A stretch of 32,000 nt of DNA from Flavobacteriaceae bacterium. Lineage in GTDB: Bacteria > Bacteroidota > Bacteroidia > Flavobacteriales > Flavobacteriaceae. The translations under genes and the position numbers were made by a program. Below are positions 18,266-29,815 of this stretch, piece by piece; within the stretch, counting starts at the first letter, position 1; the number at the start of each line of letters is the position of its first letter. Below the pieces are notes generated by a model. It was not told the origin of the DNA, made no database searches, and saw only the letters and a program-made list of their open reading frames with translations. The DNA lies in assembly GCA_965224465.1 (NCBI GenBank), contig OZ245049.1, forward strand, positions 3,120,001-3,152,000, written 5' to 3'.

Positions 18266-18412
18266 TGCTTAAGTATTGAGGCTGCAAGATACATTTTCTT
18301 AAGTTTTGATGTCAATATTTTCTTATGCTTTTAAAGTGCTTAAATAATTGCTTTTAGAAGGCTTCTCTTAATAGATTTAACGATTGCTTTACGGCACAAC
18401 TTTGATTTATTC

Positions 18413-18757
18413 CCCAATTACTCGCTATCGCTCAGGATAAAATTTGTATCGTGTGACCGTAGCAGCTTAAGAATACATGAAAAACAAATAATAGCATGGC
18501 TTAACGTGGATGCTACACGATACAAATATATTAGGAGCGTTGGGCTTTACTTGTTGAGGCTACAATCATTGGCGTCCCAAAAACCTACTATCCTATACAG
18601 TTTTTATTGTTGTTTTAAAGAATTTACAAATCTAAAGTAATAAGAAAAATAAGACCTTTTGTAAATCTTGCTGTTTTGTTACTTCTATTGTTGTTTTCTG
18701 CGAAGTCAGAGACTGTCGCAGAGCCGTATTTTTTTATTTAGACTTCGTGGAGTGGGG
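18413..18757. repeat. island repeat family A, copy 1 (345 bp)
   Basis: Near-identical to 20768-21145 apart from a 33-bp indel. Ends in the shared tail GACTTCGTGGAGTGGGG. Confidence 0.9.
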
Positions 18758-18981
18758 CTGCTCAATACTCTCGTATTGAAAACGGAAAGACAGACCCTTC
18801 TATTTCTACTGTAGAAAAAATTGCCAAAGCCCTTGGTGTAACTATGGCAGAACTGTTTACCAGTTCTAATGATTTAAAAGAAGTTCATTCTTTGAATAAA
18901 ACGTTAATGGAAAGAGTGGCATCCAGAGTATATTGCTCTTTTGAACGCGATACAATCGCGCACTACAGGGGATACATTTGA
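18748..18981 (+). pseudogene. 5'-truncated XRE-family helix-turn-helix gene fragment
   Basis: Open frame without a start: WSGAAQYSRIENGKTDPSISTVEKIAKALGVTMAELF... The recognition helix and wing of an XRE HTH are present, but helices 1-2 are replaced by the end of repeat A. Confidence 0.6.
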
Positions 18982-19364
18982 TTGTTGGTTCTTATCAAAT
19001 TACCAGTATAAAAAAAAAGACTTAAAACAAAAACAATAACTAGAAATGAAACTAACCTAATATAAAATCTCTTCTTTTTAGATTCACAATTTATTTCAGT
19101 TAATATTTTGTTTCCTAATTTAGAAAAATAATAATAATTAATTCCAAACAATAAAACAATTGAAAAAATTGGAATCCATTTAGAATAATCTAGAAAGTTC
19201 CCACTTGTACTCAATGCCAAATAAAAATCTAGAATTGAACTTAATGCCATCGATTCTAAAACAGAAATTACTACAATACAATAGAAAAATGGATTATCAC
19301 CCCAGTTTTCTATTTTCAACACTTCCTTATAAAAATGATTTAAGCTATAGTATAAATATCTCAT
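18963..19364 (-). CDS. putative immunity protein 1 (3 predicted TM helices)
   Basis: 133 aa. Its start overlaps the CT1 stop in an ATGA overlap. Three hydrophobic helices. The stop codon lies inside junction segment D. Confidence 0.55.
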   Translation of the reverse strand: MRYLYYSLNHFYKEVLKIENWGDNPFFYCIVVISVLESMALSSILDFYLALSTSGNFLDYSKWIPIFSIVLLFGINYYYFSKLGNKILTEINCESKKKRFYIRLVSFLVIVFVLSLFFYTGNLIRTNNQMYPL

Positions 19365-20766
19365 CGTCCTAAAAATTCTTTAGTAAAAATTGTAGTTGAA
19401 TTGGTTAATTTATTAGGATCCTGAAAAACTTTACTCCATTTATGTTGGCTAACATTTCTCCAGTTAACTTGTATATTACAATTACAAGAGTCTTCAATTA
19501 TATATCCCAAATTATATCCAAAACTTGCAGCCGCACCAGGAGCTCCCATAAACCCTACTCCATTAAATAATTGATCCTGAGCCATACGAGCCGAACCAAT
19601 TTGATTGGATTTCCATTGATCATGTGTGTTATAAATACCATATGCGCCAAAAGCAGAACCTAATCGTCCTGCAACTTTACTTATTGGTTTTGCGAAATCT
19701 TTCATCCCTCCAATATACTGATTTCCAGACACAAATATTTTAGGGTCATATAATTTTCCGTTTGTACTCATCCACCATCTACCTTTTTGAAATAATAAAT
19801 CACTTGAAGCAGATGCCGCTGCTCCTCCCACAGTAACTATTCCATCGGGTAAATTAAAACTTTTTGTATTTTTTTCTCCTGTTGCAAAGATATTATGAGA
19901 AGCACTTGAAAAATTAAAACTTCCTCCTGCAGCTAACTGATCCCATGATGCCATTGACCCTGTGCTAAAGTCAATTAATCCTCCACCAGTAATACTAGCA
20001 CTTCCCCAATTCACTCCATTTACTCCTCCTCCTATAACAACATCATCAGCAACCCACGTTCCTTTACCCATCCAATTAAAGCCTTCTGGGCAATCTACTC
20101 CAACAGTACAACCTCCAGTAGGATCCATAGACATATTAGGTCTGTTATCCATAGCCATATAAGGCGAGTGGTATTGTCCCATTGGGTCTACCGTTAACCA
20201 TCTTCCAATACGTGTATCATACAAACGTAATTGAAAGGCGGGCATTCCAGTTTCTTTATCGGTTTCTGCAAACTCTCCTTGATAACCATATCTATACCCA
20301 TTTGCATCCACCGTATTTCTATTAGGCATTGGCATCCCAAAAGGGTAATAGTCGGTAGACGAATCTATCTTTCCTTCTTTGCTTACTACCGCACGTACAT
20401 TTCCTAAATGGTCCGTAAGCTGATAAGCCGTGCTATTGTTTTGTTTAAAAAACACCCCAAACGGCTGGCTCCGTATATGGGAAGCTCTATTTGTGTTTGG
20501 TTGTTGTAAATAGCTAATACGCTACCTGCGGCATCGCGGACGTAATATTGAGTGTTTGTTAGCGAACCATGAGTGTCAAATACTTCTTTACGTACTCTGT
20601 GACCTTTGTCGTTGAAAAAGAACTTGAGTAAAGGTATGTTATTTTTTTTAATTTCTGTTACTAAGCCGCTTGCGTTGTATTTGTAAGAAATTCCTTCGCT
20701 ATTGTTTTTTATGAGTTGACCTAAGCTATTGTAGACATAATTTCCTGCTGCTTGTTTTTTTAAGTC
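19361..20766 (-). pseudogene. orphan rhs/YD-repeat C-terminal fragment 1 (5'-truncated, frameshifted) with variable domain CT1
   Basis: YD-repeat and RHS-core motifs (YQLTDHLGNVRAV, YYPFGMPMPNR, GYRYGYQGE, LRLYDTRIGRWLTVDP, DPTGG). CT1 spans 19361-20110 (249 aa). There is a 1-nt deletion relative to fragment 3 near 20457. The 5' end is cut by repeat A at 20767. Confidence 0.8.
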
Positions 20767-20767
20767 T

Positions 20768-21145
20768 CCCGATTACTCGCTATCGCTCAGGATAAAATTT
20801 GTATCGTGTGACCGTAGCAGCTTAAGAATACTTAATACGATCTTTTTGCGTATTATAAGAATACATGAAAAACAAATAATAGCATGGCTTAACGTGGACG
20901 CTATACGATACAAATATATTAGGAGCGTTGGGCTTTACTTGTTGAGGCTACAATCATTGGCGTCCCGAAAACCTACTGTCCTATACAGTTTTTCTTGTTG
21001 TTTTAAAGAACTGACAAATCTAAAGTAATAAGAAAAATAAGACCTTTTGTAAATCTTGCTGTTTTGTTACTTCTATTGTTGTTTTCTGCGAAGTCAGAGA
21101 CTGTCGCAGAGCTGTATTTTTTTATTTAGACTTCGTGGAGTGGGG
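20768..21145. repeat. island repeat family A, copy 2 (378 bp)
   Basis: Aligns with 18413-18757. The extra 33 bp (20831-20863) is flanked by the 8-bp direct repeat AAGAATAC. Confidence 0.9.
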
Positions 21146-21234
21146 TTTTCCACATAAATTTTTATTAACAAAAATAATCTAGTTTTTTCTTGGTTTAATC
21201 ATAGAATACAGGGGGAGGCTTTAACACTTATTTG

Positions 21235-28541: not shown

Positions 28542-28790
28542 TTAAACAGAAGCGATATTATATTTCTTTCTGAACTTTCCCATCACTTCATTATGTGGAT
28601 GAACTTTACCATCTTCGACATCTTTCAATCCTTTTTCAATTAGTTTTTTTGCAACATCAGGTAATGCATCATAAGGGTCAATATCTTCTTTTACATAACT
28701 CTCATAAAGTGCATCAATCATACGCAAAAAGCGTTCATCTACGTTGGCGATTGATTGTATCCATTTTTTTCTTAATTCTATTGCTTCCAT
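28542..28790 (-). CDS. putative antitoxin of the ParE/RelE-like toxin
   Basis: 82-aa ORF immediately upstream of the toxin. Helical and acidic, with the N-terminal pattern ELRKKWIQSIANVDERFLRMI seen in Bacteroidota addiction-module partners. Confidence 0.6.
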   Translation of the reverse strand: MEAIELRKKWIQSIANVDERFLRMIDALYESYVKEDIDPYDALPDVAKKLIEKGLKDVEDGKVHPHNEVMGKFRKKYNIASV

Positions 28791-29047
28791 AATATGATTG
28801 GTTAAGGCTACTACAAATATACATTATTATAGCATTATCTCCAGTGCTTTAAAATACGAAAATCATTCCGAAGTCACAATTTCAATCGTTAGATAAGATA
28901 TGTAAAGCTAATTTTATTTCTGTTTTGAACAGCTAAATCCTTATGTTTTTTGTAACTCATAACTTTTTTATCAACTAATCAAATCCACACCATCACGTTG
29001 GTGGTATATCCGAGCGGTCGGGCTTCGTGGAGTGGGGTGCTCCGCCT

Positions 29048-29079
29048 AAAAACAAAAAAACCTCACATCTCTGTAAAGG
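29048..29079 (-). terminator. Rho-independent terminator candidate (minus strand)
   Basis: The minus-strand RNA CCUUUACA-GAGA-UGUGAGG forms a 7-bp stem including 2 G-U pairs, followed by UUUUUUUGUUUUU. The G-U pairs make it strand-specific. Confidence 0.5.
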
Positions 29080-29102
29080 CTTATTGTTTTGATATCTTGC
29101 TT

Positions 29103-29237
29103 TTTTGAACGCGATACAATCGCGCACTAGCCGGGAATCCGCGCTATCACGTGAGAGGTATGTCCGCGCTATCGGGTTTCTGCGAAGTCAGAGACTGTCG
29201 CAGAGCTGTATTTTTTTATTTAGACTTCGTAGAGCGG
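29103..29237. repeat. mosaic junction: segment D + right end of repeat B + tail of repeat A
   Basis: 29103-29129 matches 18939-18965. 29136-29179 matches 26744-26787. 29177-29237 matches 21085-21145. Confidence 0.85.
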
Positions 29238-29243
29238 CTGTTT

Positions 29244-29693
29244 TTAAGGATTTATTTCTTTTGTTACGTTAAAGTTAATTGTTTTTTTATGTTTGATTTG
29301 GACTATTTTATATTCTTTGTTTCGTATAAATTCAATATCTTTATCGTTTACATCAAAACTTATAGTTGCAATCCACCTGTTCGAAATGTTAGAGAAATCA
29401 GAATTTATTTCTTTAGTGTCAGAGTCCATAAATAGTTCTATTTTACCTCCTAAAAACGAGAGTTCTACTCCTTTGAGTGTTTTTATTTTTGCTTTACTAA
29501 GTACGGTTAATTCTAAAAATTTGTATCCTCCCAATTCGTTAAATTCCATCCAAACTCCGTATGCATTACAACCTGCAATTTTAATTCCACGTATCTGGCT
29601 TATTTTTTTTTCTGTAAATGTATCAACATGTATTCTTTTTATTGCATGTATATTTCCAAAAGCAGCTAATATATGGTTCAGTTTTTTAAACAT
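29244..29693 (-). CDS. hypothetical protein (149 aa), first ORF of the island
   Basis: ORF with ATG start and no TM helices. No family recognised. The stop is 7 nt from the repeat A tail. Confidence 0.45.
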   Translation of the reverse strand: MFKKLNHILAAFGNIHAIKRIHVDTFTEKKISQIRGIKIAGCNAYGVWMEFNELGGYKFLELTVLSKAKIKTLKGVELSFLGGKIELFMDSDTKEINSDFSNISNRWIATISFDVNDKDIEFIRNKEYKIVQIKHKKTINFNVTKEINP

Positions 29694-29815
29694 TTGTTGA
29701 ATTATTTATATGGATACTAAAGCTAAATATATTTGAGCTTGTGTAAATATACAAAAGTTTTTGTTGTTTGTCTCGAGTGCATTGCAGGGCTGTATTGTAA
29801 AATGTTAAGAGCGTT

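What the first reader, a model, noticed from the sequence alone, without database searches (positions are those of the whole stretch)
18266..29815. Orphan-only rhs-CT/immunity cassette island with no full-length rhs gene
All cassette units between dgt and the FAD monooxygenase read on the minus strand and have the same grammar: a 5'-truncated rhs fragment or toxin tail, followed by a small ORF within 0-10 nt (ATGA overlap, 3-nt, 1-nt, 6-nt and 10-nt gaps). Three fragments keep the RHS-associated core and become unrelated immediately after DPTGG, DPDGG or DSDGG, as expected for polymorphic-toxin CT domains. None retains more than about 260 residues upstream of that point. The window has no N-terminal rhs region and no PAAR, VgrG or secretion genes. 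The gene upstream of the array on the minus strand is a metabolic one. Two precedents are established. Orphan rhs-CT/immunity modules trailing a full-length rhs gene are known in enterobacteria. Arrays of orphan immunity genes with toxin remnants and repetitive intergenic sequence (acquired interbacterial defence clusters) are known in gut Bacteroidales. An orphan-only array in a Flavobacteriia-like genome, with its own repeat architecture and CT domains I cannot assign, may represent one of two things. It could be a silent CT arsenal that recombines with a distant rhs gene through the 0.3-0.8 kb conserved core. Or it could be an immunity island that keeps protection while the toxins decay.
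Basis: partly seen in the sequence, partly recalled or inferred. Interest (0 to 1): 0.75.

Follow-up and report, generated by a model that had tools for sequence, protein, structure and literature searches.

The report
Decayed orphan Rhs toxin–immunity array
This 11.5-kb stretch is the broken-down tail of an Rhs toxin locus: the toxin fragments are mostly dead, their small partner genes are intact, and short hairpin repeats separate the units. It is an ordinary kind of locus in a poorly described bacterial group.

Summary
Between dgt and the FAD monooxygenase lie three 5'-truncated rhs fragments. Each scores above the TIGR03696 cut-off and diverges right after DPTGG, DPDGG or DSDGG. There is also a 42-codon rhs remnant. 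Each fragment is followed within a few bases by an intact small ORF. The window has no full-length rhs, PAAR or VgrG.

- A recent IS4 element on the + strand (21974-23545) splits CT2, so the "toxin tail" is the end of fragment 2, not a separate cassette.
- Fragments 1 and 2 share one frameshift.
- Fragment 1 is a chimera of fragments 3 and 2.
- The "repeat architecture" is two segmental duplications plus REP hairpins of a Bacteroidota RAYT-associated family.

Related Flavobacteriaceae carry about 1,450-aa signal-peptide Rhs proteins with the same trailing orphans. At least two of them also have orphan-only arrays.

Best reading: a decaying displaced-CT array that now serves mainly as an immunity store. 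The "silent arsenal" idea could not be tested because the source genome was unreachable.

One side result is less expected. In 79 rhs loci from other genera, all 97 REP matches lie downstream of an rhs core.

Verdict: new member of a known kind, modest interest.

The parts
18298..18412 (.). Left junction of the island. Similarity to the dgt loci of the closest relatives stops at 18297.
   Evidence: blastn of the window against L081 and L082
18413..18757 (-). Repeat R1, copy a (345 nt). It contains a 61-nt hairpin repeat, a leader plus an rhs stub ('FGTPM'), and a degenerate REP end.
   Evidence: 89% identical to 20768-21145. Sub-repeats D6, D8 and D9. Sequence read.
18762..18935 (+). 5'-truncated remnant of an XRE-type helix-turn-helix gene.
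   Evidence: My own reading of the sequence (…SRIENGKTDPSISTVEKIAKALGVTMAELF…). Not confirmed with a profile search.
18945..18961 (-). REP-family hairpin just after the stop of the 133-aa ORF.
   Evidence: Covariance model R1, E = 0.0075. The copy at 29109-29125 is the same (D10).
18963..19364 (-). 133-aa multi-pass membrane ORF in the immunity position of cassette 1. Intact.
   Evidence: ATGA overlap with the CT1 stop. Only a weak, sub-threshold hit to the Bfi1 immunity family (E = 0.0028).
19361..20767 (-). rhs fragment 1 (about 218 core residues, frameshifted near 20455) plus CT1 (249 aa after DPTGG).
   Evidence: TIGR03696 at 45.7 bits. Alignment A1. Chimera of fragments 3 and 2. CT1 has no Pfam or PDB match.
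20768..21145 (-). Repeat R1, copy b (378 nt, with a 33-nt insertion). It abuts the 5' truncation point of fragment 1.
21235..21675 (-). 146-aa ORF in the immunity position of cassette 2. Intact.
   Evidence: 3-nt gap after the CT2 stop. A 29%-identical homologue (E = 2e-16) lies directly after an orphan rhs-CT in Tenacibaculum sp. TC6 (L037:13023-13445).
21679..21973 (-). C-terminal part of CT2, cut off by the IS insertion.
   Evidence: Removing the IS and one target-duplication copy joins it in frame to 23546-24290.
21974..23545 (+). IS4-family insertion sequence (1,572 bp) with transposase at 22088-23521.
   Evidence: NF049925 at 388 bits against a cut-off of 250. 14-bp perfect inverted repeats and an 8-bp duplication TTTGATAA. 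At least 90% identical to Tenacibaculum transposases, with a second copy in the same genome.
23546..24517 (-). rhs fragment 2 (about 190 core residues, with the same frameshift as fragment 1) plus the N-terminal part of CT2 after DPDGG.
   Evidence: TIGR03696 at 49.9 bits..
24680..25030 (-). 116-aa ORF in the immunity position of cassette 3. Intact.
   Evidence: 1-nt gap after the CT3 stop. No family match.
25032..26516 (-). rhs fragment 3 (about 235 real core residues) plus CT3 (233 aa after DSDGG). It is the only uninterrupted toxin ORF, and its ATG and first roughly 40 codons come from repeat DNA.
   Evidence: TIGR03696 at 51.4 bits.. The C-terminal ~80-aa domain of CT3 has only about 20 relatives among 1.84 billion representative proteins, all at protein C-termini. 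The structure model has pLDDT 82 and no PDB fold match.
26459..26479 (+). REP hairpin, antisense to rhs, at the 5' truncation point of fragment 3.
   Evidence: Model R1, E = 0.0069. The 38-nt stretch is 100% identical to 27955-27992.
26482..26787 (-). Repeat R2, copy a (306 nt). It starts with a REP (26726-26754) plus a half-REP, followed by about 250 nt of leader.
   Evidence: 98.7% identical to 27233-27537. Model R1, E = 1e-4.
26777..27127 (-). 116-aa ORF with no toxin partner, lying between the two R2 copies. Candidate orphan immunity gene.
   Evidence: Intact ORF whose stop codon lies inside the REP head. No family match.
27233..27537 (-). Repeat R2, copy b, with a REP at 27477-27505.
27537..27716 (-). 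59-aa two-helix membrane ORF in the immunity position of the decayed cassette 4.
   Evidence: 8-nt overlap with the upstream reading frame, and a REP 1-2 nt after its stop.
27709..28117 (-). Cassette 4 remnant: rhs core residues 153-194 (27992-28117), a REP (27965-27985), then a short CT tail.
   Evidence: A remnant with the same core limits, also followed by a REP, occurs in Flavivirga (L053:15942-16094).
28250..28790 (-). 82-aa plus 96-aa ORF pair with a 1-nt gap. Probably a type II toxin-antitoxin pair.
   Evidence: Faint Unstab_antitox hit (E = 0.028). A homologue of the 82-aa ORF lies in an Aquimarina rhs locus (L031). The structure model of the 96-aa ORF is unusable (pLDDT 49).
28982..29237 (-). 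Cluster of REP and half-REP hairpins and the 61-nt repeat, after the 149-aa ORF.
   Evidence: 29109-29125
29244..29693 (-). 149-aa ORF with no toxin partner, followed by the REP cluster. Possible orphan immunity gene.
   Evidence: Position and grammar only. No family match.

Best explanation
The interval is the decaying 3' tail of a Flavobacteriaceae-type Rhs polymorphic-toxin locus.

How it arose. An ancestral full-length rhs gene repeatedly acquired new C-terminal toxin/immunity cassettes by recombination within the conserved core. In relatives this gene encodes a protein of about 1,450-1,500 aa with a signal peptide and no PAAR domain. Each displaced older cassette remained downstream as a 5'-truncated orphan. 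This origin is inferred from the known C-terminal displacement model and from related loci that show exactly this layout. The 5' body of the main gene is no longer next to the array. It was lost or separated by deletion or rearrangement at repeats. The region is a synteny breakpoint, and REP hairpins sit at the rhs truncation points.

What is there now.
- Four rhs-derived toxin pieces that cannot be secreted, three of them broken: a shared frameshift, a recent IS4 insertion, and reduction to 42 codons.
- Four intact partner ORFs.
- Two further intact toxin-less small ORFs.

What it does. The only function the array can still plausibly provide is immunity against matching Rhs toxins from neighbouring cells. 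It also offers passive sequence homology for recombination.

The repeats. The inter-cassette repeats are REP hairpins of a RAYT-associated Bacteroidota family, two local duplications (R1, R2) and one IS. They are not dedicated recombination sites.

Shown: anatomy, domain identity, disruptions, chimerism, REP identity. Inferred: history, immunity function, loss of the main gene.
For: - Three fragments score above the TIGR03696 cut-off and diverge after DPxGG.
- Small ORFs lie within an 8-nt overlap to a 3-nt gap of each fragment.
- In 79 related loci, about 70 have a full-length rhs with roughly 1,000 aa upstream of the core. Many have trailing orphans with the same grammar, for example L033, L056, L065 and L037.
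- The Rhs protein of L009 ends in a Tox-PL-2 domain.
- The CT3 domain recurs at the C-termini of other Rhs fragments.
- An Imm2 homologue sits in the same slot in L037.
- Decay is visible as a shared frameshift, an IS4 insertion with a target duplication and the remnant 4.
- Fragment 1 is a chimera of fragments 3 and 2.
- Synteny with the closest dgt relatives ends at 18297, and the far side is not syntenic.
- Orphan-only arrays exist elsewhere. L037 is truncated by an IS3-family fragment, and L068 is also orphan-only.
- REP identity rests on several results. 100 of 120 metagenome matches have perfectly paired variable stems. 95.3% of cells are paired against 73.7% in shuffles. RAYT genes with NHVH and YIH[QY]NP motifs lie next to the motif in 9 loci, matching TnpA_REP subclass 2.6 (PMC6006769).
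- No tyrosine recombinase is present in the window.
Against: - No experiment or expression data shows that the small ORFs are immunity genes. None matches a known immunity family, apart from a sub-threshold Bfi1 hit.
- The CT in front of the Imm2 homologue in L037 is not detectably related to CT2.
- Cassette 3 is fully intact, and the cores recombined recently. The array is therefore not purely dead and could still donate CTs.
- Whether a main rhs gene exists elsewhere in the 5.24-Mb genome is unknown.
- The homologue searches for CTs and immunity ORFs were weak or failed.
Confidence: 0.68

Rival explanations
1. Silent CT arsenal. The array is kept as a store of toxin/immunity cassettes that are moved onto a full-length rhs gene elsewhere in the chromosome by homologous recombination through the 0.5-0.65 kb conserved core. 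This partly overlaps with the best explanation.
For: - The cores are 81-89% identical over 500-630 nt.
- Fragment 1 is a chimera: 96-100% identical to fragment 3 over 20762-20563, then 100% identical to fragment 2 over 20562-20364. This shows recent recombination between cores.
- Cassette 3 is intact.
- Full-length rhs genes are the rule in related genomes.
- Orphan activation by recombination is documented in Salmonella (my own knowledge of Koskiniemi et al. 2014; related paper PMC7043789 listed).
Against: - Three of the four toxin parts are disrupted.
- Fragments 1 and 2 would transfer a frameshift unless the crossover fell downstream of it.
- No full-length rhs lies in the 32-kb window, and none could be looked for in the genome.
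- Recombination between distant direct or inverted copies would delete or invert large chromosome segments unless it occurred by gene conversion.
Confidence: 0.2
2. REP-bounded mobile cassettes. The REP hairpins are functional cassette ends. A RAYT-type HUH enzyme, or REP-REP recombination, inserts, deletes or exchanges rhs-CT/immunity units.
For: - All 97 covariance-model matches in 79 rhs loci of other genera lie downstream of an rhs core. 79 are in the rhs sense, and none lies in the upstream flanks or in the dgt loci.
- All six window matches are inside the island.
- REPs abut rhs-homology breakpoints in the window (26459-26479 and 27965-27985) and in L037 (twice), L066, L053 and L033.
- Successive cassettes in L037 carry REPs with different stems.
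- One metagenome locus reads rhs, small ORF, REP, RAYT (L185).
Against: - In metagenomes most copies of the same REP family sit in unrelated contexts next to housekeeping genes. Only 8 of 100 are near this type of rhs core.
- REP accumulation in gene-poor, horizontally exchanged DNA would give the same picture by hitch-hiking.
- No RAYT gene lies in the window.
- RAYT-driven movement of cargo DNA has not been demonstrated for any REP family (my own knowledge).
Confidence: 0.1
3. Integron-like or rAID-like acquired defence cluster, in which a dedicated site-specific recombinase captures immunity genes at repeated intergenic sites.
For: Co-directional small ORFs with toxin remnants and repeated intergenic sequence, as described for rAID-1 in Bacteroidales (bioRxiv 10.1101/471110).
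Against: - The window has no XerD-type or other tyrosine or serine recombinase. The only mobility gene is an IS4 DDE transposase that interrupts a cassette.
- The repeats are REPs linked to RAYT genes elsewhere.
- Most units still carry rhs core sequence, which points to displacement from an rhs gene rather than capture.
Confidence: 0.04
4. Intracellular toxin-antitoxin-like modules. Orphan fragments are translated from internal starts and act with their immunity proteins inside the producing cell, as reported for the Salmonella orphan Rhs.
For: - Fragment 3 has an ATG-initiated 494-aa ORF.
- Fragments 1 and 2 have GTG-initiated ORFs covering the core end plus the CT.
- There is a precedent in PMC7043789.
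Against: - The start codons are supplied by repeat DNA or by a frameshift, and look accidental.
- CT2 is split by an IS.
- There are no expression data.
Confidence: 0.06

Closest known systems
Orphan rhs-CT/rhsI modules of Enterobacteria (Poole et al. 2011, PMC3150448; C-terminal displacement model of Jackson et al. 2009, from my own knowledge)
   Same: - 5'-truncated rhs pieces that keep the core end and the DPxG junction.
- Unrelated CTs, each followed by a small ORF.
- Variable length of retained core.
- In-frame defects in the retained core.
- The CT family also occurs fused to other Rhs proteins.
   Different: - No full-length rhs lies directly upstream.
- The parent family has a signal peptide and no PAAR or VgrG link.
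- The junction reads DPxGG rather than DPxGL.
- The cassettes are separated by REP hairpins.
Trailing orphan arrays and orphan-only arrays in other Flavobacteriaceae (loci fetched here: Flagellimonas L033 and L065, Tenacibaculum L056 and L037, Aquimarina L068)
   Same: - Same core family (55-68% amino-acid identity).
- Same grammar.
- Same REP family after the small ORFs.
- L037 and L068 also lack a full-length gene within 10 kb upstream.
   Different: Most of these loci keep the main gene. This window adds an IS4 insertion, two local duplications and a toxin-antitoxin-like pair.
rAID-1 / AID immunity islands of gut Bacteroidales (Ross et al. 2019; bioRxiv 10.1101/471110)
   Same: Arrays of co-directional orphan immunity-type genes with toxin remnants and repeated intergenic sequence. 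The likely benefit is protection without attack.
   Different: rAID-1 is defined by a 5' XerD-like recombinase, which is absent here. Here the units are visibly derived from an rhs gene. I could not compare the repeat motifs because the rAID-1 logo is only available as a figure.
REP/RAYT systems, TnpA_REP subclass 2.6 of Bacteroidetes (Quentin et al. 2018, PMC6006769)
   Same: - A short hairpin with a conserved head and a covarying stem.
- Copies flank 176-aa HUH/Y1 genes with NHVH and YIH[QY]NP motifs.
- Copies are scattered in intergenic DNA.
   Different: The strong concentration downstream of rhs cassettes in Flavobacteriaceae (97 of 97 matches) is not mentioned in the papers I read.

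Membership tests
Rhs/YD polymorphic toxin (C-terminal part) | RHS repeat-associated core domain (TIGR03696) | tested here: met
   45.7, 49.9 and 51.4 bits against a cut-off of 32.5 for the three fragments.
Rhs/YD polymorphic toxin (C-terminal part) | Conserved junction (PxxxxDPxGx) after which sequences become unrelated | tested here: met
   DPTGG, DPDGG and DSDGG. The alignment loses all similarity after them. The CTs have no mutual similarity.
Rhs/YD polymorphic toxin (C-terminal part) | YD-repeat shell and N-terminal secretion or trafficking region | tested here: not met
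   A full-length relative (L009, 1,488 aa) matches the window only from its residue 1011 onward. This is expected for orphans.
Rhs/YD polymorphic toxin (C-terminal part) | CT is toxic and is neutralised by the product of the downstream ORF | not testable with these tools
   Needs co-expression assays.
Orphan rhs-CT/immunity module (enterobacterial sense) | Lies downstream of a full-length rhs gene that shares the core | tested here: not met
   None in the 32-kb window. The genome-wide question could not be tested.
Orphan rhs-CT/immunity module (enterobacterial sense) | 5'-truncated core fragment plus CT plus closely linked small ORF | tested here: met
   Four units.
rAID-1 (recombinase-associated acquired interbacterial defence) | XerD-like tyrosine recombinase at the 5' end of the array | tested here: not met
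   Pfam and NCBIfam scans of the island and window ORFs find no tyrosine recombinase. The array end beyond 29815 is a monooxygenase.
rAID-1 (recombinase-associated acquired interbacterial defence) | Small ORFs homologous to known immunity genes | tested here: inconclusive
   No Pfam or NCBIfam immunity family reaches threshold. The large-database search failed technically.
REP / RAYT (TnpA_REP subclass 2.6) | Conserved head plus hairpin with covarying stem, present in many copies | tested here: met
   100 of 120 pattern matches have perfect stems. 243 cells show changes on both sides, against 66 in shuffles. Six copies in the window.
REP / RAYT (TnpA_REP subclass 2.6) | Copies flank a Y1/HUH transposase gene with NH[LIV]H and YIH[QN]NP motifs | tested here: met
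   Nine metagenome loci have such a gene next to the motif, and eight of these genes score PF01797. L194 is flanked on both sides. Motifs read directly (signature from PMC6006769).
REP / RAYT (TnpA_REP subclass 2.6) | A cognate RAYT gene in the same genome as these copies | not testable with these tools
   The source genome is not retrievable.
IS4-family insertion sequence | DDE transposase, terminal inverted repeats, target-site duplication | tested here: met
   NF049925 at 388 bits against a cut-off of 250. 14-bp inverted repeats and an 8-bp duplication.

The most novel reading that the evidence does not exclude
The REP hairpins may be more than passengers. In Flavobacteriaceae they would mark the ends of rhs-CT/immunity cassettes. 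Single-strand processing by a RAYT-type HUH enzyme, or REP-REP recombination, would insert, truncate and exchange the cassettes. This would be a second route of toxin diversification alongside homologous recombination in the rhs core.
Probability: 0.1. Interest if true: 0.7.

Novelty: new member of a known kind. Interest (0 to 1): 0.33.

Why it matters
As an orphan Rhs array it adds little. Displaced CT/immunity modules, their decay, and immunity-only islands are established concepts.

Its value lies in three smaller points:
1. It documents the Sec-signal, non-PAAR Rhs family of marine Flavobacteriaceae and the orphan arrays of that family, including arrays that have lost the main gene.
2. It supplies three toxin tips with no known family. 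One is a rare ~80-aa domain with invariant W, K, E and H residues and no structural match.
3. It points to a striking co-location of a RAYT-associated REP family with rhs cassette ends across genera. If that link is causal, it would connect REP biology to toxin diversification.

Tried and rejected
- **Looking up the source genome.** Exact look-ups of dgt and fragment 3 found nothing, although the proteins are in the collection on a 5,241,564-bp contig. The genome-wide search for a full-length rhs was therefore impossible.
- **Large-database protein search.** It listed no hit longer than 840 aa, although about 70 full-length relatives exist. The absence of a long same-genome hit is therefore uninformative.
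- **Concatenated queries.** The CT query returned only self hits. The immunity query returned nothing at all, not even self. Both negatives are technical and should be ignored.
- **tRNA-derived origin of the GGATTTGCAATCC hairpin.** Rejected: ARAGORN found no tRNA.
- **Known RNA family.** None found at the gathering or the relaxed threshold.
- **rhs-specific recombination site.** Rejected as the main reading. The same motif is widespread in unrelated contexts and next to RAYT genes.
- **Cognate CT conservation.** The CT in front of the L037 Imm2 homologue is not similar to CT2.
- **CT1, CT2 and CT3 against Pfam and PDB sequences.** Nothing found.
- **CT3 fold search.** No match (E >= 1).
- **Structure of the 96-aa ORF.** pLDDT 49, so it was not searched further.
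- **Invertible-promoter reading of the inverted REPs around 26484-26727.** Considered but not tested.

Full report
**1. What is in the interval**

ORF listing, self-comparison and profile searches give the following map. It is read on the minus strand, from the FAD monooxygenase (29816-30952) down to dgt (16943-18265).
- A 149-aa ORF (29244-29693), followed by a cluster of short hairpin repeats (28982-29237).
- An 82-aa plus 96-aa ORF pair (28250-28790).
- An rhs remnant keeping core residues 153-194 (27992-28117), followed by a hairpin, a short tail and a 59-aa membrane ORF (27537-27716).
- Repeat R2b (27233-27537).
- A 116-aa ORF with no toxin partner (26777-27127).
- Repeat R2a (26482-26787).
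- rhs fragment 3 with CT3 (25032-26516) and a 116-aa ORF (24680-25030).
- rhs fragment 2 with CT2 (23546-24517), interrupted by an IS, then the rest of CT2 (21679-21973) and a 146-aa ORF (21235-21675).
- Repeat R1b (20768-21145).
- rhs fragment 1 with CT1 (19361-20767) and a 133-aa membrane ORF (18963-19364).
- A remnant of an XRE-type gene on the + strand.
- Repeat R1a (18413-18757).

The three fragments score 45.7, 49.9 and 51.4 bits on TIGR03696, against a cut-off of 32.5. They lose all similarity to one another immediately after DPTGG, DPDGG and DSDGG. The rest of the window encodes housekeeping proteins only. A 1,488-aa Rhs from Aquimarina matches the window only from its residue 1011 onward.

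**2.

- *The IS4 element.* The + strand carries an IS4-family element at 21974-23545. Its transposase scores 388 bits on NF049925 against a cut-off of 250. It has 14-bp perfect inverted repeats and an 8-bp target duplication, TTTGATAA. Removing it joins 23546-24290 in frame to 21679-21965. The "toxin tail" is therefore the end of CT2, and the 146-aa ORF is the partner of fragment 2.
- *Age of the IS.* The transposase is at least 90% identical to Tenacibaculum copies, and the genome holds a second copy. The insertion is therefore recent.
- *Shared frameshift.* Fragments 1 and 2 share a 1-nt deletion relative to fragment 3.
- *Start of fragment 3.* The ATG and first roughly 40 codons of the fragment 3 ORF are repeat DNA.
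- *Chimerism.* Fragment 1 is 96-100% identical to fragment 3 over 20762-20563, then 100% identical to fragment 2 over 20562-20364. The cores have therefore recombined recently.

**3. Context in related genomes**

The source is a 5.24-Mb contig that the look-up tools would not return.

A scan of species-representative genomes with the fragment 3 core gave 79 loci, in Aquimarina, Tenacibaculum, Kordia, Flagellimonas and other genera, at 51-68% identity.
- About 70 of them have roughly 1,000 residues of open frame upstream of the core. They are full-length genes of about 1,450-1,500 aa.
- L009 starts with a signal peptide, has no PAAR domain and ends in a Tox-PL-2 toxin domain.
- Many loci carry trailing orphans. 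Most of these start near core residue 145-160, at the start of the TIGR03696 domain. Some are as long as the fragments here, as in L065.
- Two loci are orphan-only within 10 kb. L037 is cut by an IS3-family fragment, and L068 is the other.

Orphan arrays, including ones that have lost the main gene, are therefore a regular feature of this family.

The closest dgt relatives (83-86% nucleotide identity) are syntenic downstream of dgt. Similarity stops at window position 18297, and the monooxygenase side has no counterpart. The island therefore lies at a synteny breakpoint.

**4. The toxin tips and small ORFs**

- None of CT1, CT2 or CT3, nor any small ORF, matches Pfam, NCBIfam or PDB sequences.
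- An exhaustive HMMER search with CT3 found only 24 relatives among 1.84 billion representative proteins. They fall into two groups: a linker shared with other Rhs tips, and a C-terminal domain of about 80 aa (GxWxKVY…NG.K.E.HYF…TG). That domain always lies at a protein C-terminus, including on other Rhs fragments.
- The structure model of this domain has pLDDT 82 and is a small β-sheet. It has no significant PDB neighbour.
- The 146-aa ORF has a 29%-identical homologue directly after an orphan CT in Tenacibaculum sp. TC6. That CT is not detectably like CT2.
- Two concatenated-query searches were technically uninformative.

**5. The repeat architecture**

R1 and R2 are local duplications, 89% and 98.7% identical respectively.

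Within and around them lies a hairpin with this consensus: CCCCnGCTnS-CGC-[5 bp]-TGT-[5 bp']-GTG-S'C.

*In the rhs loci.* The same motif occurs in the rhs loci of other genera, with different but complementary stems.

*In metagenomes.* A scan with a pattern that leaves the stem free returned 120 stretches. Of these, 100 have perfectly paired stems.

*Covariation.* On 122 instances, 95.3% of cells pair, against 73.7% in shuffles. 243 cells show changes on both sides, against 66 in shuffles.

*What flanks it.*
- The flanking genes in metagenomes are diverse.
- The commonest family is the IS200-like Y1 transposase (PF01797), found in 8 ORFs. A cluster of 9 ORFs lies directly beside the motif. The complete members are 176-193 aa.
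- They carry NHVH and YIH[QY]NP motifs. This is the signature of TnpA_REP subclass 2.6 of Bacteroidetes (PMC6006769).

The hairpin is therefore a REP of a RAYT system. It is not an rhs-specific or integron-like site, and no Rfam family matches it.

**6. An unexpected side result**

A covariance model built only from the metagenome instances finds six copies in the window, all inside the island. In the 79 rhs loci it finds 97 copies, spread over 40 loci.
- Every copy lies downstream of an rhs core.
- 79 of them are in the rhs sense.
- None lies in the roughly 700 kb of upstream flanks or in the dgt loci.

REPs usually begin within a few bases of the small ORF's stop. They also abut rhs-homology breakpoints in the window (26459-26479 and 27965-27985) and in L037 (twice), L066, L053 and L033.

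This could simply be hitch-hiking in gene-poor, horizontally exchanged DNA. It could also reflect a role of REPs in cassette truncation or movement. The data do not decide between these.

**7. Interpretation**

The anatomy fits serial C-terminal displacement in an ancestral full-length locus, followed by loss or separation of the 5' gene body and continuing decay.

Three of the four toxin parts are disrupted, while all small ORFs are intact. This favours retention of immunity. It is comparable in effect to the AID islands of Bacteroidales (10.1101/471110), but it lacks their defining recombinase.

A role as a CT donor for a distant rhs gene remains possible, because cassette 3 is intact and the cores have recombined recently. 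It needs the complete genome and population sequencing to test.

**8. Verdict**

The features claimed as special (orphan-only layout, a repeat architecture of its own) are either seen elsewhere in the family or explained by known element types. This is a new member of a known kind and of modest interest. The REP-rhs co-location is the one lead worth following.

Noticed in passing
L001-L079 (rhs loci of other Flavobacteriaceae); window 18945-29125: All 97 covariance-model matches of a RAYT-associated REP hairpin in 79 rhs loci lie downstream of an rhs core, and 79 of them are in the rhs sense. None lies in the upstream flanks. The six window copies are all inside the island.
   Followed up: partly
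L037:11600-15350 (Tenacibaculum sp. TC6): An orphan-only array in which every small ORF is followed by one or two REPs. The inner stems differ from cassette to cassette (GGACT, TCGTT, TAGTT, ACGAT), as if each cassette arrived with its own REP. The array is truncated upstream by an IS3-family fragment (9445-9807).
   Followed up: partly
window 27992-28117 and L053:15942-16094 (Flavivirga): The same short rhs remnant (core residues 153-194) followed directly by a REP occurs in two genera. A related stub sits inside repeat R1 (around 18560-18640 and 20950-21020).
   Followed up: partly
window 20364-20762: rhs fragment 1 is a chimera. It is 96-100% identical to fragment 3 over 20762-20563, then 100% identical to fragment 2 for the next 200 nt. 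This indicates recent gene conversion or recombination between array members.
   Followed up: yes
window 25035-25316 (CT3 C-terminal domain): A rare toxin-tip domain of about 80 aa (GxWxKVY…NG.K.E.HYF…TG; invariant W, K, E, H) with about 20 relatives among 1.84 billion representative proteins. It has no Pfam family and no PDB fold match (model pLDDT 82).
   Followed up: partly
window 28250-28790: An 82-aa plus 96-aa ORF pair with a 1-nt gap, embedded in the array. It is probably a type II toxin-antitoxin pair, based only on a faint Unstab_antitox hit. A homologue of the 82-aa ORF lies in an Aquimarina rhs locus (L031:17307-17507).
   Followed up: partly
L185:672-6270 (metagenome contig): A full-length rhs, a 135-aa membrane ORF, a REP and then a degenerate RAYT-like gene, all in a row.
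   Followed up: no
L102, L113, L152, L162 and other ENA metagenome contigs: REP copies with the GAGCT stem lie between small ORFs that look like immunity proteins (two SUKH-4 hits in the set) and near PAAR-like toxin genes (L153, L206). They could be the 'repetitive intergenic sequences' reported for rAID-1 clusters, but I could not compare the motifs.
   Followed up: no
window 18762-18935 (+): A 5'-truncated remnant of an XRE-family helix-turn-helix gene between the 133-aa ORF and repeat R1a.
   Followed up: no
window 29816-32000: The FAD monooxygenase, a 138-aa membrane protein and a divergent TetR-like regulator have no counterpart within 10 kb of dgt in the closest relatives. The variable region therefore extends beyond the reported interval.
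   Followed up: partly
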